Part shown: positions 4,389 to 32,207 of the stretch, in pieces
How positions within the stretch are numbered: the stretch's first letter is position 1
Layout of the letters: the number at the start of each line of letters is the position of its first letter
Origin: Candidatus Niyogibacteria bacterium RIFCSPLOWO2_01_FULL_45_48
GTDB taxonomy: Bacteria > Patescibacteriota > Minisyncoccia > HO2-45-28
Length of the DNA: 33,835 nucleotides
Direction of reading: 5' to 3'
NCBI GenBank assembly: GCA_001819395.1
Contig: MHMQ01000015.1
Coordinates: forward strand, 1-33,835
Program-made: the position numbers and the translations under genes
Notes under the pieces: generated by a model
Database searches by the model: none
The model's input: the letters and a program-made list of their open reading frames with translations, nothing else
Told to the model about the DNA's origin: nothing

Positions 4389-5090
4389 TTAATTTTTGAC
4401 AAGAGCCGTGCTCTTGTCAGCATTTGTCCAGTCTGTTAAAAATTTCCAATATTCTTCGCTGTTATTGTCAAAACACTCAATTACCGGCCCTTTTTCAATA
4501 ATCGGCGCAAATTCTTCTCTTGTTTCAAGATATTCCGGCAAACTTGACCATTTATAGTCTCTTAAAAACTTCTCTGCCCCCACCTTATCCTCAACATATC
4601 CCCGCTCTTTCCACATTGGATCAAAAATTTTAAGCGGATTTAGATGAATGTACCGGCTTGTGTGAGTATATTGTATATCATTTTCCACATGAACCGCTTT
4701 AAAGCGCCCGCTAAACAAAGGTCCGGAACGTTTATACTTAGTATTAAAATATAGCGCGTGGCTGGTTTCAAGGCGATGCATAAAGATGCTTATATTACTC
4801 TCTCCTAATTCTTTTACGAGCAGATGGAAATGGTTTGGCATTAAACACCACGCCAAAATTTCAACCAGTCGCTCTCCTTCTTTACTGTCTGTGTCAAGAG
4901 CCGTGCTCTTGCCATCCTTTCCAAGCACACGATCCATTCTAACTGGCCTACCGGAAGTATCGTTTAGATAAAACAGCAAAGCAATAAACCTGTGTCTATC
5001 AAAATCATTTTCAAATATAATCCTTTTTTCTACGCCTCTAGAAAAAATATGGTATATTTCTCCTTCCACAAACTCTATGCCACGAATCAT
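4389..5090 (-). CDS. REP-associated tyrosine transposase (RAYT, TnpA_REP; IS200/IS605 HuH Y1 transposase fold), 233 aa
   Basis: HuH motif LMPNHFHLLV. Catalytic Tyr in the RAYT-type context SRYIHLNPL. Flanked by inverted REP-like hairpins. Contains an internal REP-derived insertion (GKDGKSTALDTDS). The last 9 aa (DKSTALVKN) are encoded by a REP copy. Confidence 0.8.
   Translation of the reverse strand: MIRGIEFVEGEIYHIFSRGVEKRIIFENDFDRHRFIALLFYLNDTSGRPVRMDRVLGKDGKSTALDTDSKEGERLVEILAWCLMPNHFHLLVKELGESNISIFMHRLETSHALYFNTKYKRSGPLFSGRFKAVHVENDIQYTHTSRYIHLNPLKIFDPMWKERGYVEDKVGAEKFLRDYKWSSLPEYLETREEFAPIIEKGPVIECFDNNSEEYWKFLTDWTNADKSTALVKN
4397..4419. repeat. REP-like palindrome TGACAAGAGC-CGT-GCTCTTGTCA (copy 1, overlaps 3' end of RAYT CDS)
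   Basis: Perfect 10-bp arms and 3-nt loop read directly from the sequence. Confidence 0.85.
4892..4914. repeat. REP-like palindrome, copy 2 (TGTCAAGAGC-CGT-GCTCTTGCCA), internal to RAYT CDS
   Basis: Core CAAGAGCCGTGCTCTTG is identical to copy 1. It lies in-frame within the gene and encodes KSTAL. Confidence 0.8.
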
Positions 5091-5104
5091 TCTTTAAATA
5101 ATAT

Positions 5105-5137
5105 CACACTGACAAGAGCACGGCTCTTGTCAGTGTG
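5105..5137. repeat. REP-like palindrome, copy 3, extended 15-bp arms (CACACTGACAAGAGC-ACG-GCTCTTGTCAGTGTG), inverted relative to copies 1 and 2
   Basis: Perfect inverted repeat read from the sequence, immediately 5' of the RAYT start on the coding strand. Confidence 0.85.
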
Positions 5138-5154
5138 AATAACTTTATACTTAT

Positions 5155-5199
5155 ACAAGAGCCCCTGACAAGAGCACGGCTCTTGTCAGGGGCTCTTGT
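5155..5199. repeat. REP-like palindrome, copy 4, 21-bp arms (ACAAGAGCCCCTGACAAGAGC-ACG-GCTCTTGTCAGGGGCTCTTGT). Forms a tandem pair with copy 3.
   Basis: Perfect inverted repeat. The half-core CAAGAGC recurs inside the arms. Confidence 0.85.
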
Positions 5200-5213
5200 G
5201 AGTATTGCGCTCG

Positions 5214-5900
5214 TCAAAGAGAATCGAAAAGGGTTTGAAGGTCGCCGGTGGTGTCGGCGCCAGAGGAAATACCCTGATCCAAAATTTCTTCGGCCTTGGC
5301 CGTATTTTGCAAAATATCGCGATAAAAATTGGCTGTTTGGAAGTAGGTATAGCCGTTTTTCGGTTCTGCCCCTATCGCCCGAAGAAAGCTTTCTTCCGCT
5401 TTTTTGTGATCCTTAATGTAAAAAGCATAAAGATCAGCCAGATTCAAAAAAGACGTTGCGTTATCGGGCCGTAAAACTCCGGCGAAATCCCACGCCTCAA
5501 TAGCCCCCTCGTAGTCGCCTATTTGTTTTCTTAAAATACCGAGCTGAAGCCAGCCCTGAAGATAGTCGGAATTTCCTTTCAGCGTTGACGAGATCTCCTG
5601 TATTTGCAAAACAAGTTCTTGACGAGTCTTTTCCGGTATGTTCAAACCGGCGCTAATTTTAATCGGCCTTGACAAATCAGGAATTTTTAACTCTATTTTC
5701 TCCACAACCATGCCCGAAACGTCCCCTTCTGCCTCAATACTAATCCCGTTCCCTACCTCAATTTCCTTTGAAACTTCGTTTGTGTTTTTTACAGACTCCT
5801 CATCCGGCCTTAAATCCCGCCAAATTAAAAATCCAGCGGCAACCAGCGCCAAAGCCAGGAAGTAAAAAACCAGCTTTTGTTTAATTAAATTCATAACCAT
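5214..5900 (-). CDS. Membrane-anchored TPR-repeat protein
   Basis: Track ORF 5214-5912 begins at a TTG. ATG at 5898-5900 (MVMNLIKQK) is the more likely start. N-terminal TM helix. TPR-like helical repeats (LGILRKQIGDYEGAIEAWDFA, LADLYAFYIKDHKKAEESFLRAI). Confidence 0.6.
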   Translation of the reverse strand: MVMNLIKQKLVFYFLALALVAAGFLIWRDLRPDEESVKNTNEVSKEIEVGNGISIEAEGDVSGMVVEKIELKIPDLSRPIKISAGLNIPEKTRQELVLQIQEISSTLKGNSDYLQGWLQLGILRKQIGDYEGAIEAWDFAGVLRPDNATSFLNLADLYAFYIKDHKKAEESFLRAIGAEPKNGYTYFQTANFYRDILQNTAKAEEILDQGISSGADTTGDLQTLFDSL

Positions 5901-5915
5901 TATTTTAAACAAAAG

Positions 5916-5941
5916 AAAAACCCCCGTAAAGGGGGTTTTTC
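5916..5941. terminator. Intrinsic terminator hairpin AAAAACCCCC-GTAAA-GGGGGTTTTT (U/A runs on both sides, bidirectional)
   Basis: GC stem with flanking A and T runs, between the stop of the 1240-aa gene and the TPR gene start. Confidence 0.75.
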
Positions 5942-5983
5942 TTGGCCGTTAGGCCATAGCCCTAACTAATCCACAAGGATTGA

Positions 5984-8900
5984 TTAGTAAGTGCTGTTGA
6001 AGTACTCGGAGTTCATCTGTGTAGCCGGAAGACCGATTACACCATAGCCGTTTGTCCAGTCAAAGTCATCAATTGAAGCCGCGGTTGATGTTGAGCGGGG
6101 CGACCAGATGAAGTCGTCGTTCGTCAACTCCGCGTCAGTAGTTGTTGCCTTGAACATGTTGCCGGCTGTGGCTGGTTCGTCGTTGTTCAGGAAGGTGACC
6201 GGGTATGCCGCGTCACCGAGAAGAGCGACACTGAAGGTATCCTGCACGCTAGCGGTGCTTTCAACGTTGGCCACGGTGGCCTTGAAGGCAAAGTACCTGG
6301 TAGCGCCGTCGGCAACAACATAGGTGGTTGTTGCGTTACAGCCGTAACCAATGGCACCCTTGTCAGGATAAATCTCAACAACTGACGGAGCGTCTGTCCT
6401 ATCCGAAAGCTTGGCAGTGCTGGTGTGGAAGTTGTTTCCGCCTATGCAGTTTGCGTAGTTAATCAAGCCGTCGGAAGTAAATGCGGAATCAACAAGCGAG
6501 AAGCCGGAATCCGTGTAGGCGTAGAGTCCGAAACTAGTTGTCGTTGCCACCTCTGAAGACGAGCTGATGGAAAAGGACAACTTGTAAATCGCAAGGTCTC
6601 CTCCGCTTGCCATAACACTGAAACGATACAAGGTTTTGTTCGCTTCGGTTGTTCCGTTGGTCAAGGAGTTGCTCGGAACGCTAAGTTTGGCGAATGTCGG
6701 GTAGGACTTGTTGACACGAATACCGGATGAAGATGTGTCGCTGGCGGAAGGACCAATGTTGGTTCCTGAAGCCAATCCGACTCCGAAAGTACCGCCGGTG
6801 TAAGTGGAACTGCGCTCGTTATCACCGTCATAGTCAACCGTCAGGAAGTTTCCTGAAGCGGTAATCGGTCCCGAATCGGTAATCGCGCCTATATCGCCCT
6901 TAACAATCATAACTTTGGATCCGGATCGCGGAACAACAAAGTTTGTGATGTCGGACGAAGTCGCGGTATCACCAGTCGGGAATCCGGCCGTGCCAACCAT
7001 ATTACCCGCAGTGTCCCACAAAGTAACTTGCGAGCTAATCAGGTCAGTCGGCGCGTTTGAAGCAAAGCGGGAAAGCTGAAGGGCGACTTTTCGAAGCTCA
7101 ATATCTTCGTTAGTCGCGCTAAAGCGAACTCTTAACAACTCAACGCCTGCGGAGCCTGCGGTTACAATCTTGTACCCCGGGCTTCCGGCATCAAGCGCGA
7201 CTGAAAGAGAACCTCCCGAAGCAACGGTCATGGTCTGACCCTGGCTGTCGGTAATGGTTTCTGCAACCGTCTGACCGCTGGTTAGTCCTGTAGCACCCGT
7301 AAAGGTTGTCTGCGCGCCGTCAAGTCCCCATGTGTGGGTTTCGCCAGATCCGGCGGAAGCCGAAACATCGCACTTGAACTGCAGGGTCTTTGCCGTTCCT
7401 TTTGGAACAGTGAGTCCCGAGCCGTCAAGGACGAAGTTGGTGCCGGACGCGAATGAACCCGGATTGACGACATTTGAAGCATTAACAATCGTTGTGCCGT
7501 CGTAGATCTTGCAGTTGGTAAGATCGGTGGCTGAAGATCCTCCTCCGCCGTTATTTTCAATCGGCAAGCTGGTTACGCGAATGTCTTCTCCCGAAGCTGT
7601 CGCGTCAAGAACAATGCTTGCCAAGTGGAATTGCGCCGCTCCCGCGATAACGGTCTGCGCCAACGGGAAAGATGAAACCGAGAAAGCCAAAGCGCCTGCT
7701 TTTATGGTCATCAAGCTCATCGTAATCGGTGAAGTCGGGCTTGGAGTAATCGTGGTGTTTGTGATCTGTCCTCTGACGGTTCCCCATCCGGAAGGCGTGG
7801 TGGAAGCCTGGAAGGTGTCGTCGTTATCCAAGTCTGTTCCAATTTTACCTTTCAAAATATAAGAGTGGACGCCGACCGGGAAAGTGATGGTGTCAGAGAA
7901 TTTAATCTCACCGGTTGCGATTCCTGCGGCACCCGAGGCATTGCCTTCAGCGGCAACACCATCAACTGGACCCGCGATAACCGCGCCGTTTTCGTCATAA
8001 AGCGAAACACTGGTGATGTCGTCAGCATCTTCACTCGATCCTTCGTTTTCAAGATGAACGTTGAAGTGCATCGCTGCGACCGAAATCGGTTCGCCCTTGA
8101 CATCAACTGTGAAAGCGCCCAATGGCTGGTTCGCAAGGTTTATAGCAACATTTTGAGCAGGGGCCAAAACATTGTTAACAGAAACTGTCATTGTGCCTTG
8201 CGAGATGGTTACTTGTGCCGCGTCGTAGTACGGGTCATCCGCGTTGTTGAAGTCCGCGCCGTCAGTTGCGGCGGCTGCAGCATCAAACGGCGGATTAAGG
8301 CCGTAGCCGTAAAGCGCGCCCTGGAAGGCCACATCCGTGGTCTTCTGAATGTCAAAGTCAACCGTTCTTAACGATCCTCCGATGATATCACCCTTAATGG
8401 TGATTTCTTTGGAGAATCCTTTGGCCATCAAGACGCCTTTTCCGCTGTTTTCAACAAACACCGCAGTGTAGTATTTGCCGTCAGCGCTCACTGTAGGAAC
8501 ATATTCGCTTCCGTTGGCGTAAACCTTGACATTTGTCAAGTCATCCTTGGAAGCAGAACCTGACTGGTACCACCTGACGTATTTAATGTATACGTCTTCG
8601 GCGGAACCGGACGTGAATTTAACAGACGAGAAAGTGTAGGTTTTTGTTCCGACTTCTTTTGTCTGTGATGAACCCGGGTCAAGCGCTCCTCGCGCGGGAC
8701 CGGGGATGGTGCCGATGGTCAATGTTTCGTTGATTGTGTGGCCAGCGCCGACAACCGGGAATGAGCCGTTAACCGCGGCATTCGCGGCGACCGATGCTAC
8801 CGAAAGATAGGCAATCTGTCCGCCATATCCTCCGCCCGATGTTTGGGCGTTTCCGCCGACAACCACTGTTTTGGTCTGTCCGGCCTTAACCACAAAGTCC

Positions 8901-9706
8901 TCGGTCAAAGCCGCCTGGTGAAGGGAATTCAAAGTTTTTGAAATTCCGATTTGCGTTCCCTGGTCATCCAGAAGAATGACTCCGGAGAACGAGGCGTCTT
9001 GGGCGAGACCCGTGCGCTCAACCGTGATTGAATCCACGGTCACGTCGCCGTCAGATGAAGCAGTAAGATTTACAACCGTAAACGGAACTCGCGTTGAGTT
9101 TACCGGGAACAAACTTGATACCGGCTGAACTCCAGCCGAAACCGTAAGTCCCGATCCAACTGGAGTAACAACTGGTACTGTTCCCCCGGTTGTTCCTCCC
9201 GTAGTGCCTCCGGTTGTTCCGCCGGCAACCATGTTGTACTTGGCTTTTGAAATAGAGCCGAAGTATCCGACTGCGGGCGAAACGGCATTAGCCGATTGCC
9301 ATGCCGAAACCGCTGATTGCGTTACAGAACCAAAGTATCCGGTGGCTCCTCCACTAAACGTGAAGTGGCCGGTTCCGATCAAGTAGTTCTGCAGGCATGT
9401 TACGTCATCACCCTTTGAACCCATTGTAAGGTCGCGAGTGAAGGCGCAAGCTCCGGCTGTTGCGGGCGCCGTGCCCGATGTCGCTTGGCCCCGAAGAGAC
9501 GCGTTAACATTGTTTATCGTCGCCTGATCGGTATTAAACGACTGCAAGAGCGAAAGAATCGACTGGATTTGCGCTTCGGTCAAAGCCGCGCTTGCGACCG
9601 GAACCAAAGCGGATCCCGCCAATAAAATCGCAGTTGACACAGAAACGATGGCTGCCGCCACTTTCCTGTGTTTTGCAATTAATTTACCCATATAATAATT
9701 TTTCAT
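5984..9706 (-). CDS. Large cell-surface protein (1240 aa): signal peptide, peptidoglycan-binding domain (PG_binding_1-like, approx 9235-9445), (GGTT)n linker, long Thr/Ser/Gly-rich beta-sandwich region
   Basis: Track ORF. N-terminus MKNYYMGKLIAKHRKVAAAIVSVSTAILLAGSALVPVASA fits a signal peptide. DDVTCLQNYLIGTGHFTFSGGATGYFGSVTQSAVSAWQ fits a PG-binding motif. Confidence 0.85.
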   Translation of the reverse strand: MKNYYMGKLIAKHRKVAAAIVSVSTAILLAGSALVPVASAALTEAQIQSILSLLQSFNTDQATINNVNASLRGQATSGTAPATAGACAFTRDLTMGSKGDDVTCLQNYLIGTGHFTFSGGATGYFGSVTQSAVSAWQSANAVSPAVGYFGSISKAKYNMVAGGTTGGTTGGTTGGTVPVVTPVGSGLTVSAGVQPVSSLFPVNSTRVPFTVVNLTASSDGDVTVDSITVERTGLAQDASFSGVILLDDQGTQIGISKTLNSLHQAALTEDFVVKAGQTKTVVVGGNAQTSGGGYGGQIAYLSVASVAANAAVNGSFPVVGAGHTINETLTIGTIPGPARGALDPGSSQTKEVGTKTYTFSSVKFTSGSAEDVYIKYVRWYQSGSASKDDLTNVKVYANGSEYVPTVSADGKYYTAVFVENSGKGVLMAKGFSKEITIKGDIIGGSLRTVDFDIQKTTDVAFQGALYGYGLNPPFDAAAAATDGADFNNADDPYYDAAQVTISQGTMTVSVNNVLAPAQNVAINLANQPLGAFTVDVKGEPISVAAMHFNVHLENEGSSEDADDITSVSLYDENGAVIAGPVDGVAAEGNASGAAGIATGEIKFSDTITFPVGVHSYILKGKIGTDLDNDDTFQASTTPSGWGTVRGQITNTTITPSPTSPITMSLMTIKAGALAFSVSSFPLAQTVIAGAAQFHLASIVLDATASGEDIRVTSLPIENNGGGGSSATDLTNCKIYDGTTIVNASNVVNPGSFASGTNFVLDGSGLTVPKGTAKTLQFKCDVSASAGSGETHTWGLDGAQTTFTGATGLTSGQTVAETITDSQGQTMTVASGGSLSVALDAGSPGYKIVTAGSAGVELLRVRFSATNEDIELRKVALQLSRFASNAPTDLISSQVTLWDTAGNMVGTAGFPTGDTATSSDITNFVVPRSGSKVMIVKGDIGAITDSGPITASGNFLTVDYDGDNERSSTYTGGTFGVGLASGTNIGPSASDTSSSGIRVNKSYPTFAKLSVPSNSLTNGTTEANKTLYRFSVMASGGDLAIYKLSFSISSSSEVATTTSFGLYAYTDSGFSLVDSAFTSDGLINYANCIGGNNFHTSTAKLSDRTDAPSVVEIYPDKGAIGYGCNATTTYVVADGATRYFAFKATVANVESTASVQDTFSVALLGDAAYPVTFLNNDEPATAGNMFKATTTDAELTNDDFIWSPRSTSTAASIDDFDWTNGYGVIGLPATQMNSEYFNSTY

Positions 9707-10056
9707 TAATTTTTAGAGAGTGAATTCTCAACTTCGACAAAGTTAAGCTCCTCTCTTTCTAAATAATCCAATCCAATAAAACTTTCGGTAATGAAGCCGA
9801 ATCCTATCAACGTAATCCCGATTTTATCGAGATACATTTAATCGACCGGACCTTGACCCCATGTTAAATCAAACTTAAGTTTTTATACTTAACTATTTTC
9901 ATCCGTGCGGTGGTTTATTTAATTTTCAAAGTTCTTGTCAGTGTTCTTTCTTAGCTCAACCCGAATACGGCAAACCTAGCCATCTACTGGCCTTTTAAGT
10001 ACGCTCTGCACCTCAAATTGCCGTGCACCCATTTCTGACATTCTGCATTAGTTTTA

Positions 10057-10085
10057 ATTATAAATCCCCTTTTCAAAGCTAGCAA
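10057..10085 (-). promoter_or_regulatory. Near-consensus sigma70-type promoter on minus strand: TTGCTA (-35, 10080-10085), 17-bp spacer, TATAAT (-10, 10057-10062). Predicted TSS near 10050, giving a ~345-nt leader before the 1240-aa gene.
   Basis: Hexamers and spacing read from the reverse complement. Confidence 0.5.
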
Positions 10086-10127
10086 AACAAGGGTGTGGAT
10101 AAGTAAAAAGGGGCCTTTTTAAGCTAC

Positions 10128-10158
10128 AAAAAAGCTTCCGCAAGGTCAATGCGGAAGC
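10128..10158 (-). terminator. Intrinsic terminator for gene 10191-10916: GCTTCCGCA-ttgacct-TGCGGAAGC followed by U6 on the minus strand
   Basis: 9-bp GC-rich stem plus A-run 10128-10133 on the + strand (U-run on minus). Confidence 0.75.
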
Positions 10159-10190
10159 AAAGCACAAATGTATATATATAGTATGTCAAG

Positions 10191-10916
10191 TTATGGCGCG
10201 GGGGCCAATTTATACCTCCTCCAGCGTTTTTCGCCTTCTTTTATAAGGAGACCTTCCGTTGCCATGCCGACCAGGTCCCTTTGGAGCGTTTTTCCGCTTA
10301 TCCGGCCCCTGAAAACATCCGCCAACTCGCCGATACTTACCCAGTCCTTTTCTTTTATAAAAGATATTATTTCACCGCGCCTCTCCCCGCCCCCCACGTT
10401 GTTGGCTAGAGCCGTGCTCTTGACAGTGGTTAGAACCGAGTTCTGACCACTTTCGTTTTCTTCGTTTTTGTCGTGAACTTGGTTCGAGACGTGTTGTCCG
10501 TTAAAGCCGTTAGATAGTTGTCCAATAGGCTCGTGTCCAATAAGACCGACAGCTGAAGGCTCGGGCAAAATATCGTATTTGCGTTCAGACAAGTAATCGG
10601 CCAGATTTAAATACTCCCTTTTTAGCACTTGGAAATTGGCCTCGGATATAAATGAGCCCGATGATGCCAACTCAAGTGTCCTTATGGACTGACGTATGTT
10701 TTCGGATATTATATCCAACCCCCTGACCCTTTCGTTGGGGGATGCGGTCTTAATTTTCAAAATAGATTCAAAAATTTCAAGTCCGTCCCGGCGCAAGAGC
10801 CACTTTAAGGGCTCCGAATCGGAAAATAAATCCGTCACGCGGTAAAGCGCCTCGGTCAATTTTTGCGAGCGTTCGTAAATATGTTCCAGATGGCCGTTGC
10901 CGTTATTTTCAGACAT
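10191..10916 (-). CDS. Hypothetical protein with C-terminal winged-helix DNA-binding domain (241 aa). Carries an in-frame REP-derived insertion.
   Basis: C-terminal ISFIKEKDWVSIGELADVFRGRISGKTLQRDLVGMATEGLLIKEGEKRWRRYKL is wHTH-like. The N-terminal domain was not recognised. Confidence 0.55.
   Translation of the reverse strand: MSENNGNGHLEHIYERSQKLTEALYRVTDLFSDSEPLKWLLRRDGLEIFESILKIKTASPNERVRGLDIISENIRQSIRTLELASSGSFISEANFQVLKREYLNLADYLSERKYDILPEPSAVGLIGHEPIGQLSNGFNGQHVSNQVHDKNEENESGQNSVLTTVKSTALANNVGGGERRGEIISFIKEKDWVSIGELADVFRGRISGKTLQRDLVGMATEGLLIKEGEKRWRRYKLAPAP
10407..10425. repeat. REP-like palindrome, copy 5 (TAGAGC-CGT-GCTCTTGACA), inside CDS 10191-10916, in-frame, encoding KSTAL
   Basis: Core AGAGCCGTGCTCTT is identical to the RAYT-flanking REPs. 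The host protein reads TTVKSTALANN. Confidence 0.75.
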
Positions 10917-15435: not shown

Positions 15436-15479
15436 AAATCCGACAAAATAAAAACGATCGTTTTTATTTTGTCGGATTT
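15436..15479. repeat. 44-bp perfect inverted repeat AAATCCGACAAAATAAAAACGATCGTTTTTATTTTGTCGGATTT (hairpin; possible bidirectional terminator and/or operator)
   Basis: Perfect 19-bp arms around the palindromic CGATCG centre. Sits between the stop of the PNPOx-like gene and the pif1 promoter. Confidence 0.8.
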
Positions 15480-19688: not shown

Positions 19689-19759
19689 TGCGGGGTCATC
19701 TAGCGGTAGGATGCGACTCTCTGAAAGTCGTCACCTTGGTTCGAATCCAAGCCCCGCAG
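19689..19759 (+). tRNA. tRNA-Gln (anticodon CUG), 71 nt, no encoded CCA
   Basis: Manual cloverleaf. Acceptor UGCGGGG/CCCCGCA with U1:A72 and G73 discriminator (Gln identity). D-arm AUC/GAU. Anticodon stem CGACU/AGUCG with loop CUCUGAA. T-arm CUUGG-UUCGAAU-CCAAG. Confidence 0.85.
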
Positions 19760-30997: not shown

Positions 30998-31072
30998 TGG
31001 AGCCGAAGGTGGGATTTGAACCCACGACCTACTCTTTACGAAAGAGTTGCTCTACCGCTGAGCTACTTCGGC
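30998..31072 (-). tRNA. tRNA-Thr (anticodon CGU), 75 nt with encoded CCA
   Basis: Manual cloverleaf on minus strand. Acceptor GCCGAAG/CUUCGGC. D-arm GCUC-AGCGGUA-GAGC. Anticodon arm ACUCU-UUCGUAA-AGAGU. T-arm GUGGG-UUCAAAU-CCCAC. Discriminator U, then CCA. Confidence 0.85.
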
Positions 31073-32136: not shown

Positions 32137-32207
32137 TGCGAGATAGGAGAATCGAACTCCTGCCTAATGCTTGGGAAGCACTCGTTCTGCCACTAAACCA
32201 ATCTCGC
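32137..32207 (-). tRNA. tRNA-Gly (anticodon CCC), 71 nt, no encoded CCA
   Basis: Manual cloverleaf on minus strand. Acceptor GCGAGAU/AUCUCGC. D-arm GUUU-AGUGGCA-GAAC. Anticodon arm AGUGC-UUCCCAA-GCAUU. T-arm AGGAG-UUCGAUU-CUCCU. Discriminator A. Track ORF 32136-32390 (+) is an artefact over this gene. Confidence 0.85.

What the first reader, a model, noticed from the sequence alone, without database searches (positions are those of the whole stretch)
4892..10425. REP palindromes inserted in-frame inside protein-coding genes, each encoding the pentapeptide K-S-T-A-L
Three of the five REP copies lie inside ORFs: RAYT internal (GKDG-KSTAL-DTDS), RAYT C-terminus (D-KSTAL-VKN-stop) and the winged-helix protein 10191-10916 (TTV-KSTAL-ANN). 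In every case the AAGAGCACGGCTCTT core is read in the same frame, as AAG AGC ACG GCT CTT. The palindrome uses self-complementary codon pairs (AAG/CTT and AGC/GCT). Either orientation therefore gives K-S-x-A-L with no stop in that frame. The internal copies have altered flanks that remove the TGA present in the full TGACAAGAGC form. This points to a miniature palindromic element that proliferates into coding sequence while keeping the reading frame open. This is an unusual and, as far as I know, sparsely documented behaviour for REPs.
Basis: seen in the sequence. Interest (0 to 1): 0.65.

Follow-up and report, generated by a model that had tools for sequence, protein, structure and literature searches.

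The report
Transposase hairpins translated inside genes
A 23-base DNA hairpin recognised by a domesticated transposase (RAYT) in a tiny-genome Niyogibacteria bacterium lies in frame inside genes, including the transposase's own gene. Relatives carry their own version of the hairpin at the same spots, so most of these are inherited, co-evolving sites rather than fresh insertions.

Summary
AAGAGCACGGCTCTT occurs 5 times (0.08 expected). Three copies are translated as K-S-T-A-L, in a RAYT-like HUH/Y1 transposase (residues 61-65 and 226-230) and in a winged-helix protein.

One detail is wrong. The TGA of TGACAAG is out of frame in that reading, so the altered flanks do not remove a stop.

In nine RAYT lineages with the long loop (42-100% identity, DNA inspected), a hairpin sits upstream, at codons 55-63 and at the 3' end. 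Its sequence is lineage-specific and matches that lineage's other copies (arm identity 86% to own copies, 42% to other lineages). The two RAYT copies are therefore old, fixed features evolving in concert.

The same hairpin types recur in frame at fixed loops of rsmA and in the winged-helix linker. Hybrids, mixed-type doublets and a presence/absence polymorphism point to replacement at occupied sites. Only the winged-helix KSTAL copy looks recent.

Other types use other frames. Both RAYT KSTAL segments fall in the only low-confidence parts of the AlphaFold model.

Intragenic REPs and REP/RAYT co-divergence are already published. A conserved hairpin inside the RAYT reading frame, and this system in CPR bacteria, were not found in the searchable literature.

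The parts
4389..5090 (-). RAYT-like HUH/Y1 transposase gene (233 aa). It is intact, with HUH (NHFHLL) and YIHLNP motifs.
   Evidence: Pfam PF01797 scores 38.3 bits against a cut-off of 23. NCBIfam REP_Tyr_transpos scores 47 bits, below its cut-off of 80. The AF2 model has pLDDT 86.5. The best PDB fold match is 4er8, TnpA-REP. The gene order is conserved in Niyogibacteria relatives.
4397..4419 (-). Full 23-nt hairpin (W type) inside the RAYT C-terminal tail, read as D-K-S-T-A-L-V (residues 225-231). It ends 12 nt before the start codon of the next gene.
   Evidence: It folds as ssDNA at -9.7 kcal/mol, z = -6.0. The tail residues 227-233 have pLDDT below 50.
4893..4913 (-). Internal copy (GGCAAGAGC-ACG-GCTCTTGAC) in the loop between helix a1 and the HUH strand, read as G-K-S-T-A-L-D (residues 60-66).
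   Evidence: It folds at -8.1 kcal/mol, z = -5.5. Residues 57-63 have pLDDT below 50. The same site is occupied by a lineage-specific hairpin in the eight other long-loop lineages inspected.
5104..5138 (+). Upstream copy (23-mer at 5110-5132) extended to a 16-bp stem. It ends 14 nt before the RAYT ATG and is inverted relative to the in-gene copies.
   Evidence: It folds at -18.5 kcal/mol.
5155..5199 (+). Second upstream copy (23-mer at 5166-5188) nested between two half-repeat arms (CAAGAGC...GCTCTTG), giving a 21-bp stem.
   Evidence: It folds at -26.6 kcal/mol.
10404..10424 (-). Degenerate W-type copy (GTCAAGAGC-ACG-GCTCTAGCC) in the linker of the winged-helix protein, read as V-K-S-T-A-L-A (residues 165-171).
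   Evidence: It is absent from the closest ortholog L023, which has a different 72-nt stretch in its place.
10428..10448 (-). Q-type hairpin (GGTCAGAAC-TCG-GTTCTAACC in gene orientation), read as G-Q-N-S-V-L-T. It forms a mixed-type doublet with the W copy.
   Evidence: The 21 bases are identical in L023. The same repeat type is found in the RAYT and rsmA genes of relatives.
10191..10916 (-). Winged-helix (DeoR-like HTH) gene with a hypervariable linker that hosts the doublet.
   Evidence: Pfam HTH_DeoR. Alignments A2 and A5. There is a 100% match to a Candidatus Niyogibacteria RIFCSPLOWO2_01_FULL protein.

Best explanation
The motif is the cognate 23-nt hairpin repeat (format TG-N19-CA) of a syntenic RAYT-like HUH/Y1 single-strand-DNA transposase in a Candidatus Niyogibacteria (CPR) genome.

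Intergenic space is scarce in these compact genomes. Copies therefore persist inside coding DNA only where the encoded 7-8 residues fall in disordered or variable segments: the RAYT a1-b2 loop, the RAYT C-tail, three loops of RsmA, and the winged-helix linker. There they are simply translated.

The positions are inherited. The sequences are not. Within a genome all copies, including those inside genes, are kept alike and match the RAYT-flanking copies. Between lineages the type changes.

The inferred mechanism is repeated overwriting at, or insertion next to, already occupied hairpin sites. This could occur by RAYT-dependent strand exchange or by short-patch conversion or template switching at the hairpin. 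Purifying selection then removes anything that breaks the frame.

On this view the two RAYT KSTAL segments are the current state of two ancient sites. The 25-30 residue RAYT loop itself probably began as a repeat insertion. Only the winged-helix KSTAL copy is a recent gain, laid down beside an older Q-type repeat.

Shown: identity of the parts, conserved positions, concerted sequence change, nucleotide-level conservation above the coding background, and location in low-confidence protein segments. Inferred: the overwriting mechanism and the involvement of RAYT.
For: (1) RAYT identity. Pfam Y1_Tnp. HUH and Tyr columns are invariant. The best fold match is 4er8, TnpA-REP bound to a REP hairpin.

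(2) Same architecture in nine lineages: window, L019, L017, L006, L001, L004, L021, L022 and L026. Each has a hairpin upstream (-18 to -132), one centred at codon 55-63, and one in the C-tail or just after the stop, with a different sequence in each lineage. The internal-copy arm is 86% identical to the lineage's own flanking copies and 42% identical to internal copies of other lineages. Stem positions show 2-4 Watson-Crick pair types (computed on the eight lineages).

(3) A 27%-identical homolog that lacks the long loop has flanking hairpins only.

(4) DNA-level constraint.
- The L017 and L026 C-tail 23-mers are 23/23 identical at the same codon, although the genes are 65% identical (third positions 44%).
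- The L001 and L026 internal 23-mers are 23/23 identical against 75% for the genes.
- GQHSEL[ST] is the only conserved part of the loop among P0007, P0009, P0010 and P0011.

(5) Turnover at fixed sites.
- L026 carries G type upstream and internally but Q' type in the tail.
- L013 rsmA site 1 is positionally orthologous to L014's Q-type doublet. It has a W-type core, a Q-type TGACC end, and a leftover TGACC.
- W and Q copies are adjacent in the window's winged-helix gene and at L013 rsmA site 2.
- A repeat is nested within repeat arms at 5155-5199.
- P0122 and P0124 are identical except for a roughly 100-bp patch with or without the doublet.

(6) Recurrent sites in RsmA carry types W, Q, V, W', G, K and R in different lineages and are empty in others. 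Site 2 is a 14-residue insertion relative to B. subtilis KsgA.

(7) The type in rsmA matches the type at RAYT within one MAG (L004 and L010).

(8) Both RAYT KSTAL segments coincide with the only two stretches of pLDDT below 50.
Against: - No complete genome could be surveyed. Copy numbers, the genic fraction and frame usage rest on about 25 loci.
- The exact-21-mer scans find few copies (5 sites in one MAG, 3 JGI contigs). The family may barely be dispersed, which weakens the case for active mobilisation.
- Positions are conserved only to within about 4 codons. Independent re-insertion into the same permissive loop is therefore not excluded.
- The hybrids could arise by point mutation. The L013 and L014 site-1 left repeats differ at 7 of 21 bases, not far above the local coding divergence.
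- A hairpin is present at the RAYT internal site in all nine long-loop lineages, whereas rsmA sites are sometimes empty. This hints at a function that the passenger model does not predict.
- RAYT activity on these hairpins is untested.
Confidence: 0.6

Rival explanations
1. A mobile miniature palindrome keeps inserting de novo into coding DNA. Selection lets through only in-frame, stop-free insertions in tolerant loops. The same loops are therefore hit independently in different lineages, with no inheritance of sites.
For: - The winged-helix W copy is absent from the closest ortholog, about 90% identical at nucleotide level in the aligned region.
- There is a presence/absence polymorphism at rsmA site 2 between P0122 and P0124.
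- Positions vary by a few codons between lineages, and the C-tail frame differs (phase 1 or phase 2).
- All affected segments are variable or low-confidence.
Against: - Independent insertion at the same roughly 10-codon window of the RAYT loop would be required in all nine long-loop lineages inspected.
- The Q' 23-mer is identical at the identical codon in L017 and L026 despite 65% gene identity.
- Hybrid copies carry the ends of an older type.
- New copies lie directly beside older ones rather than at naive sites.
Confidence: 0.2
2. The hairpins inside and around the RAYT gene are functional cis-elements. Possible roles are an operator-like site through which RAYT binds its own gene or mRNA to limit its expression, a linked master copy of its substrate, or mRNA-stability and translation elements. 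They would be kept by selection and must co-evolve with RAYT specificity. The encoded peptide is incidental. This model is compatible with the best explanation for the copies outside the RAYT locus.
For: - A hairpin is present at the internal site in all nine long-loop lineages across 42-100% identity, and is absent only in a homolog that lacks the loop.
- A compensatory C-G to T-A change separates the L022 internal copy from its flanking copies.
- Spacing is regular: about -30, +185 and +680 nt.
- The upstream copy ends 14 nt before the ATG, and the tail copy ends 12 nt before the next gene's ATG.
- Regulation of IS200 and RAYT expression by flanking hairpins has been proposed in the literature (PMC3733652, discussion).
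Against: - Internal copies are imperfect in the window, L006 and L017.
- Orientation relative to the flanking copies is not constant.
- No U-tract follows the hairpins, so they are not intrinsic terminators.
- Equally well-kept copies occur in rsmA and in the winged-helix gene, where autoregulation makes no sense.
Confidence: 0.17
3. The palindromes are not transposase substrates. They would be operators of the neighbouring winged-helix regulator, or KSTAL would be an ordinary ancestral protein motif or a chance match.
For: Perfect 10-bp inverted repeats with a 3-nt spacer resemble operator sites. The winged-helix gene is syntenic with RAYT in several lineages.
Against: - The HTH domain is almost invariant across lineages whose palindromes differ completely.
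- RAYT genes in other genomic contexts, with no winged-helix gene nearby (L021, L022), have the same three-hairpin layout.
- KSTAL is not conserved in any ortholog.
- Chance expectation is 0.08 matches.
Confidence: 0.03

Closest known systems
REP/REPIN-RAYT systems (REPtrons) of Proteobacteria: E. coli TnpA-REP (PDB 4er8), Pseudomonas and Stenotrophomonas RAYTs
   Same: - An HUH/Y1 enzyme whose gene is flanked by its cognate short palindromes.
- A syntenic locus, consistent with vertical inheritance.
- Different repeat classes flank orthologous RAYT genes in related strains (PMC3686654).
- Inverted doublets exist.
- Flanking repeats that overlap the RAYT gene ends are tabulated in PMC3733652.
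   Different: - Host is CPR/Patescibacteria. No paper in the searchable library combines RAYT with these taxa.
- The protein scores below the NCBIfam RayT cut-off.
- There is no GTAG or CGTC tag. The repeats are 23-mers of the form TG...CA.
- Apparent copy number is low.
- A hairpin sits inside the RAYT reading frame at a conserved loop.
- Many copies are translated.
Intragenic REPs described by Di Nocera et al. 2013 (PMC3733652; Opitutus terrae, Rickettsia conorii, Xanthomonas recB)
   Same: - REP monomers and dimers lie inside ORFs of known proteins.
- Dimers encode 20-30 residues.
- Some genes are hit twice.
[quoted passage not shown]
   Different: - Here the same sites persist across lineages that have switched repeat type.
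- The RAYT gene itself is a host.
- The hosts are rsmA, a winged-helix regulator and a TPR protein rather than mainly DNA repair genes.
Rickettsia palindromic elements (RPE; Ogata et al. 2000, from my own knowledge and as cited in PMC3733652)
   Same: Palindromic selfish repeats inserted in frame in genes that remain functional. The encoded peptides lie in tolerant, surface-exposed segments.
   Different: RPEs are about 100-150 bp, have no identified dedicated transposase, and are confined to Rickettsia.
IS200/IS605 insertion sequences (IS608, ISDra2 TnpA)
   Same: The same fold. Sub-terminal hairpins lie on both sides of the transposase gene and are recognised as single-stranded DNA.
   Different: There is no sign that the gene itself is mobile, since the locus is syntenic. 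A third hairpin lies inside the ORF. Hairpin copies occur elsewhere without the gene.

Membership tests
RAYT (REP-associated tyrosine transposase, HUH/Y1) | HUH metal-binding motif and catalytic Tyr in a Y-x-H-x-N-P context | tested here: met
   NHFHLL (H87, H89) and YIHLNP (Y147, H149, N151). These columns are invariant or nearly so across 32 homologs.
RAYT (REP-associated tyrosine transposase, HUH/Y1) | Sequence-profile membership | tested here: inconclusive
   Pfam PF01797 scores 38.3 bits, above its cut-off of 23. NCBIfam equivalog NF047646 scores 47 bits, below its cut-off of 80. A PDB profile search finds only 4er8, at E = 0.0097.
RAYT (REP-associated tyrosine transposase, HUH/Y1) | Fold of TnpA-REP / IS200-type Y1 transposase | tested here: met
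   The AF2 model has pLDDT 86.5 and pTM 0.84. The Foldseek top hit is 4er8_A (E = 6.5e-7), followed by IS608, ISDra2 and IS200 TnpA.
RAYT (REP-associated tyrosine transposase, HUH/Y1) | Gene flanked by its cognate palindromic repeats | tested here: met
   The window has copies at 5110-5132 and 5166-5188 upstream and 4397-4419 at the 3' end. The same holds in eight other lineages.
RAYT (REP-associated tyrosine transposase, HUH/Y1) | Single copy per genome and vertically inherited (syntenic) | tested here: inconclusive
   The gene order (wHTH / ~1230 aa / TPR / RAYT / ~160 aa / LTD-beta-helix) is conserved fully or in the part covered by each contig in L001, L004, L006, L017, L019 and L026. L021 and L022 homologs sit in other contexts. 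Copy number per genome could not be counted.
RAYT (REP-associated tyrosine transposase, HUH/Y1) | Binds and cleaves its REP as single-stranded DNA | not testable with these tools
   Biochemistry is needed.
REP / REPIN | Short (20-40 nt) palindrome able to form a stable hairpin | tested here: met
   The repeat is a 23-mer with a 10-bp stem and a 3-nt loop. It folds as ssDNA at -9.7 kcal/mol (z = -6.0). The extended copies fold at -18.5 and -26.6 kcal/mol.
REP / REPIN | Dispersed family of many copies in the genome | tested here: inconclusive
   There are 5 copies in 33.8 kb, 4 of them at the RAYT gene. The exact 21-mer is found on 3 JGI contigs and in none of the GTDB representative genomes. 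The V-type 21-mer has 5 exact sites in its MAG. No whole genome was available.
REP / REPIN | Extragenic location | tested here: not met
   Three of the 5 W copies, plus the Q copy, are inside ORFs in the window. rsmA, TPR and RAYT genes of relatives also carry copies.
REP / REPIN | GTAG (or CGTC) tetranucleotide tag at one end | tested here: not met
   No GTAG or CGTC adjoins any copy. All but one of the types seen end 5'-TG...CA-3'; the L022 type does not.
REP / REPIN | Inverted doublets (REPIN) | tested here: met
   Doublets with 3-12 nt spacers occur in L013, L014, L006 and L026. In the window the only doublet is the mixed-type one at 10404-10448.
Rickettsia palindromic elements (RPE) | About 100-150 bp element, Rickettsia lineage, in-frame in ORFs | tested here: not met
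   The in-frame location is shared. The unit here is 21-23 nt (doublets about 48 nt), is linked to a RAYT, and the host is Niyogibacteria.

The most novel reading that the evidence does not exclude
The hairpin inside the RAYT reading frame is an obligatory part of how this transposase family works. It would be a self-encoded substrate through which RAYT senses or regulates itself, or from which new copies are templated. RAYT would exchange hairpin cores at pre-existing sites by a cut-and-swap strand transfer. This would be a previously undescribed enzymatic route to concerted evolution. It rewrites short stretches of housekeeping proteins (RsmA, regulators, the RAYT itself) whenever the enzyme's specificity drifts.
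Probability: 0.2. Interest if true: 0.85.

Novelty: new variant of a known kind. Interest (0 to 1): 0.6.

Why it matters
REP-RAYT systems are regarded as long-lived, vertically inherited residents of proteobacterial genomes. How the enzyme and its hairpin change specificity together is an open question.

This locus family supplies at least eight natural cognate enzyme-hairpin pairs (W, W', Q/Q', G, V, K, the L022 type and the L024 type). The substrate is written inside the enzyme's own gene, so specificity can be read from a single short contig and tested in vitro.

It extends REP-RAYT biology to the CPR/Patescibacteria. It also shows that in very compact genomes such repeats survive by being translated in disordered loops of essential proteins. 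In addition, it gives traceable cases of in-place type replacement.

There is a practical consequence. These repeats break assemblies (L025 ends about 50 nt from one). They also create lineage-specific peptide inserts in marker genes such as rsmA, which could mislead alignments and annotation.

Tried and rejected
- **Chance.** Rejected: 5 matches against 0.08 expected.
- **Stop-codon avoidance by altered flanks.** Rejected: the TGA is out of frame.
- **KSTAL as a conserved protein motif.** Rejected: no ortholog has it.
- **Winged-helix operator hypothesis.** Rejected: the HTH domain is invariant while the palindromes differ, and the layout persists without the wHTH gene.
- **Intrinsic terminators.** Rejected: no T-run follows the hairpins in gene orientation.
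- **Whole-genome census of the window's own repeat.** The exact 21-mer gave 0 hits in GTDB representative genomes and only 3 JGI contigs. Copy number and frame statistics for this genome therefore remain unknown.
- **Viral-contig scan for more RAYT DNA.** It gave one distant homolog, useful only as a loop-less control.
- **Protein-level scan for palindrome-compatible peptides across all 120 homologs.** Considered and dropped. I estimated about one false positive per protein for 8-bp stems.
- **L025 (P0004, 97% identity).** It proved to be the same strain with a ragged contig end, not an inactivated RAYT.
- **Rfam.** It finds only three tRNAs in the window.
- **A universal frame preference.** It cannot be claimed. 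All 6 translated W copies use the symmetric frame, but at least 3 of the 5 sites were probably pre-set by an older repeat, and other types use other frames.

Full report
**1. The observation**

The 15-mer AAGAGCACGGCTCTT occurs at 4401(-), 4896(-), 5114(+) and 5170(+) exactly, and at 10407(-) with one mismatch. That is 5 matches against 0.08 expected, and no shuffle reached 5. The full unit is a perfect 23-nt palindrome, TGACAAGAGC-ACG-GCTCTTGTCA. It is intact at 4397-4419, 5110-5132 and 5166-5188. The copies at 4893-4913 and 10404-10424 keep the core but differ in the outer bases.

Three copies are inside long ORFs and are all read AAG AGC ACG GCT CTT:
- GKDG-KSTAL-DTDS in ORF 4389-5090(-)
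- NAD-KSTAL-VKN-stop in the same ORF
- TTV-KSTAL-ANN in ORF 10191-10916(-)

The palindrome centre is the middle base of a codon, so either orientation stays in the same open frame. In this frame the T of TGAC belongs to the previous codon (GCT GAC AAG), and the full form is itself translated at the RAYT C-terminus.

**2. The genes**

ORF 4389-5090 matches Pfam Y1_Tnp above its threshold. It is a weak, sub-threshold match to NCBIfam REP_Tyr_transpos. It has the HUH and YxHxNP motifs in invariant columns. It gives a confident AlphaFold model (pLDDT 86.5). The best PDB match of that model is 4er8, the E. coli RAYT bound to a REP hairpin, followed by the IS608, ISDra2 and IS200 transposases. Its homologs are from Candidatus Niyogibacteria and Paceibacterota.

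The winged-helix protein is 100% identical to a protein of a Candidatus Niyogibacteria RIFCSPLOWO2_01_FULL MAG.

The RAYT gene sits in a conserved gene order: wHTH, a ~1230-aa protein, a TPR protein, RAYT, a ~160-aa protein, and an LTD/beta-helix protein. Where contigs are long enough, this order is seen in relatives as well. That is the pattern expected of a domesticated, vertically inherited RAYT rather than a mobile IS.

**3. The RAYT copies are not new insertions**

In alignment A1 every close homolog has a variable 25-30 residue loop between helix a1 and the HUH strand, plus a variable tail. Several homologs show the same short peptide in both places, and the peptide differs between homologs: GQHSELS, VGY[L/Q]VSD, KSTAL.

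DNA from the window and eight further lineages shows that these peptides are encoded by palindromes. The same palindrome also lies just upstream of each gene.

| Lineage | Hairpin | Note |
|---|---|---|
| window | TGACAAGAGC-ACG-GCTCTTGTCA | W type |
| L019 | TGACAAGAGC-TTA-GCTCTTGTCA | W' type |
| L017 | TGGTTAGAAC-CGA-GTTCTAACCA | Q' type |
| L006 | TGTCAGAAC-CGA-GTTCTGACA and TCCGAAC-TCG-GTTCGGA | Q and S types |
| L001 | TGGACAGC-ACTCCGA-GCTGTCCA | G type |
| L026 | G type upstream and internally, Q' type in the tail | mixed types in one gene |
| L004 | TGTCGGATAC-CAG-GTATCCGACA | V type |
| L021 | TGTCAAACA-TCGGA-TGTTTGACA | K type; different genomic context |
| L022 | ATCGAAGTC-CGA-CTTCGAT | only 42% identical protein |

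The internal hairpin is always centred at codon 55-63. For the eight lineages tabulated, its arm is 86% identical to the lineage's own flanking copies but 42% identical to the internal copies of other lineages. Stem positions show 2-4 different Watson-Crick pairs. A 27%-identical homolog with a short a1-b2 connection has flanking hairpins only. This suggests that the long loop arose from a repeat.

Orthologs do have a segment at the same place, but not the same segment.

**4. The hairpins are constrained as DNA**

- L017 and L026 share an identical 23-mer at the same tail codon, although the genes are 65% identical and third positions 44%.
- L001 and L026 share identical internal and upstream 23-mers at 75% gene identity.
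- Within the G-type proteins the repeat-encoded GQHSEL[ST] is the only conserved part of the loop.

**5. The same repeats in other genes**

The exact window 21-mer was found on three JGI contigs. Two of them are the same sequence and carry intergenic copies. The third, L013, carries in-frame doublets at two sites of rsmA...GKN-DKSRALT-IS-DKSTALV-TLTVDKVVANIPYY... and ...KRIVA-DQSRVLT-IS-DKSTALV-EKKEK.... The second site is a 14-residue insertion relative to B. subtilis KsgA.

In the MAG that holds L004, the only exact V-type copy outside the RAYT contig is also in rsmA. There it is read in a different frame (SDTRYPT), and one of the two sites is the same loop.

An alignment of RsmA homologs shows three recurrent sites. 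In different lineages they carry peptides of types W, Q (GQN[RS]VLT), V, W' (AKSLALG), G, K (VKHRMFD) and R (VRIRTEFG). They are empty in others and in all distant homologs.

L021 carries two families in one rsmA gene, W' and K. The K type matches the RAYT 5 kb away.

The winged-helix linker is a further recurrent site. It carries Q plus W in the window, Q alone in P0242, W' in P0247, and a long palindrome in P0243 and P0245 that I inferred by back-translating their peptides, without DNA.

**6. Evidence for replacement at occupied sites**

- L013 rsmA site 1 aligns base for base with the Q-type doublet of L014. It has W-type cores, a Q-type TGACC end on the left repeat, and a leftover TGACC after the right repeat.
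- P0122 and P0124 are identical genes except for a roughly 100-bp patch with or without the site-2 doublet.
- In the window's winged-helix gene the W copy lies 3 nt from a Q-type hairpin (10428-10448, GQNSVLT). The closest ortholog, about 90% identical in the aligned region, shares that Q hairpin exactly. In place of the 33-nt W segment it has a 72-nt Asn/Asp/Gly-rich stretch. This KSTAL copy is therefore recent and was laid down next to an older repeat.
- L026 mixes two types within one RAYT gene.
- The upstream copy at 5155-5199 is a repeat nested between two half-repeat arms.

**7. Frames**

All six translated W-type copies (three in the window, three in L013) use the symmetric frame. So do all internal RAYT copies in the close clade. 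Other copies do not:
- C-tail copies in L006, L017, L019 and L026 use another frame.
- rsmA copies in L010 and L021 use a third frame.
- The L022 internal copy also uses a third frame.

Because many sites are inherited, these counts are not independent. A mechanistic frame preference cannot be claimed.

**8. Protein context**

The only two stretches of the RAYT model with pLDDT below 50 are residues 57-63 and 227-233. These overlap the two KSTAL segments at 61-65 and 226-230. The wHTH linker and the rsmA sites are hypervariable in length and sequence. The encoded peptides are most simply passengers.

**9. Mechanism**

Best supported:
- These are cognate RAYT hairpins.
- In a genome with little intergenic space they persist only in tolerant coding segments.
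- Occupied sites are long-lived because new copies replace or join old ones there.
- All copies in a genome are kept like the RAYT-flanking ones.

The agent of homogenisation is inferred, not shown. It could be RAYT strand transfer, or short-patch conversion or template switching at hairpins.

A functional role for the RAYT-associated hairpins remains a live, non-exclusive alternative. Candidate roles are autoregulation, a linked master copy, or control of the tightly abutting downstream gene. The reason is that the internal site is occupied in every long-loop lineage inspected, while rsmA sites are sometimes empty.

The operator hypothesis is rejected. The HTH domain is nearly invariant while the palindromes differ completely, and the layout recurs where no wHTH gene is nearby.

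**10. Relation to what is known**

Intragenic REPs, including dimers encoding 20-30 residues and flanking repeats overlapping RAYT gene ends, were catalogued by Di Nocera et al. 2013 (PMC3733652). Different REP classes flanking orthologous, syntenic RAYT genes were described by Nunvar et al. 2013 (PMC3686654). Rickettsia RPEs are the classic in-frame palindromic inserts.

I could not find the following in the searchable literature:
- a hairpin at a conserved position inside the RAYT reading frame
- repeat-type turnover at fixed intragenic sites
- any REP-RAYT description for CPR/Patescibacteria

These repeats also lack the GTAG or CGTC tag. With one exception (the L022 type) they share a 23-nt TG...CA format.

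I rate this a new variant of a known kind.

**11. Limits**

- No complete genome could be surveyed.
- The exact-match scans undercount degenerate copies.
- The lineage sample is nine.
- Nothing here tests enzyme activity or translation directly.

Noticed in passing
window 15436-15479: A perfect 20-bp-stem palindrome, AAATCCGACAAAATAAAAACGATCGTTTTTATTTTGTCGGATTT. It is unrelated to the REP family and is by far the longest other hairpin in the window.
   Followed up: no
window 4389-5090 versus the public protein collection: The winged-helix protein has a 100% match in NCBI, JGI and UniRef (P0241). The full-length RAYT has none. Only a 150-aa fragment from an ENA contig is present (P0004). The RAYT ORF may be unannotated or flagged as a pseudogene in the public record, possibly because of the internal repeat.
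   Followed up: partly
L025 1-45 (same strain as window, about window 4815-4860): An independent ENA assembly of the same strain ends, with ragged erroneous bases, about 50 nt from the internal RAYT repeat. These repeats appear to break short-read assemblies.
   Followed up: yes
L011 3037-5112 (identical to L012): Two W-type repeats bracket about 2 kb. The region holds a 239-aa ORF and a roughly 1-kb strongly GC-rich stretch with open frames on both strands. It ends in a tRNA-like T-arm sequence (GGAGTTCAAATCTCCC). This could be a structured RNA or an inserted element.
   Followed up: no
L021 10704-10726 and RsmA alignment columns about 330-345: A perfect K-type hairpin in rsmA codon 235 encodes SNTGCLT. 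Most RsmA orthologs of the clade have a similar S[ND]IGCL[TI]K peptide at the same place. This looks like an old repeat insertion that became fixed protein sequence.
   Followed up: partly
L026 1674-1720: A further 23-mer type, TGGACCAAAC-GGG-GTTTGGTCCA, forms an inverted doublet between the large surface-protein gene and the TPR gene. It has the same TG...CA format as nearly all other types.
   Followed up: no
L006 9362-9397: A repeat doublet lies in frame inside the TPR protein gene next to RAYT (PESEPSSAAAELGSESA) in the complete Niyogibacteria genome CP066691.1.
   Followed up: partly
L004 4212-4232 and L006 4057-4093: In two relatives the lineage's own repeat lies just upstream of the winged-helix gene, rather than in its linker as in the window. 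In L004 the public gene call starts inside the repeat and is probably too long.
   Followed up: partly
window 5913-5943; tRNAs at 19689-19759(+), 31001-31072(-), 32137-32207(-): A terminator-like hairpin, AAGAAAAACCCCCGTAAAGGGGGTTTTTCTT, lies between the 1240-aa PG-binding protein gene and the TPR gene. Three tRNA genes are the only Rfam matches in the window.
   Followed up: no
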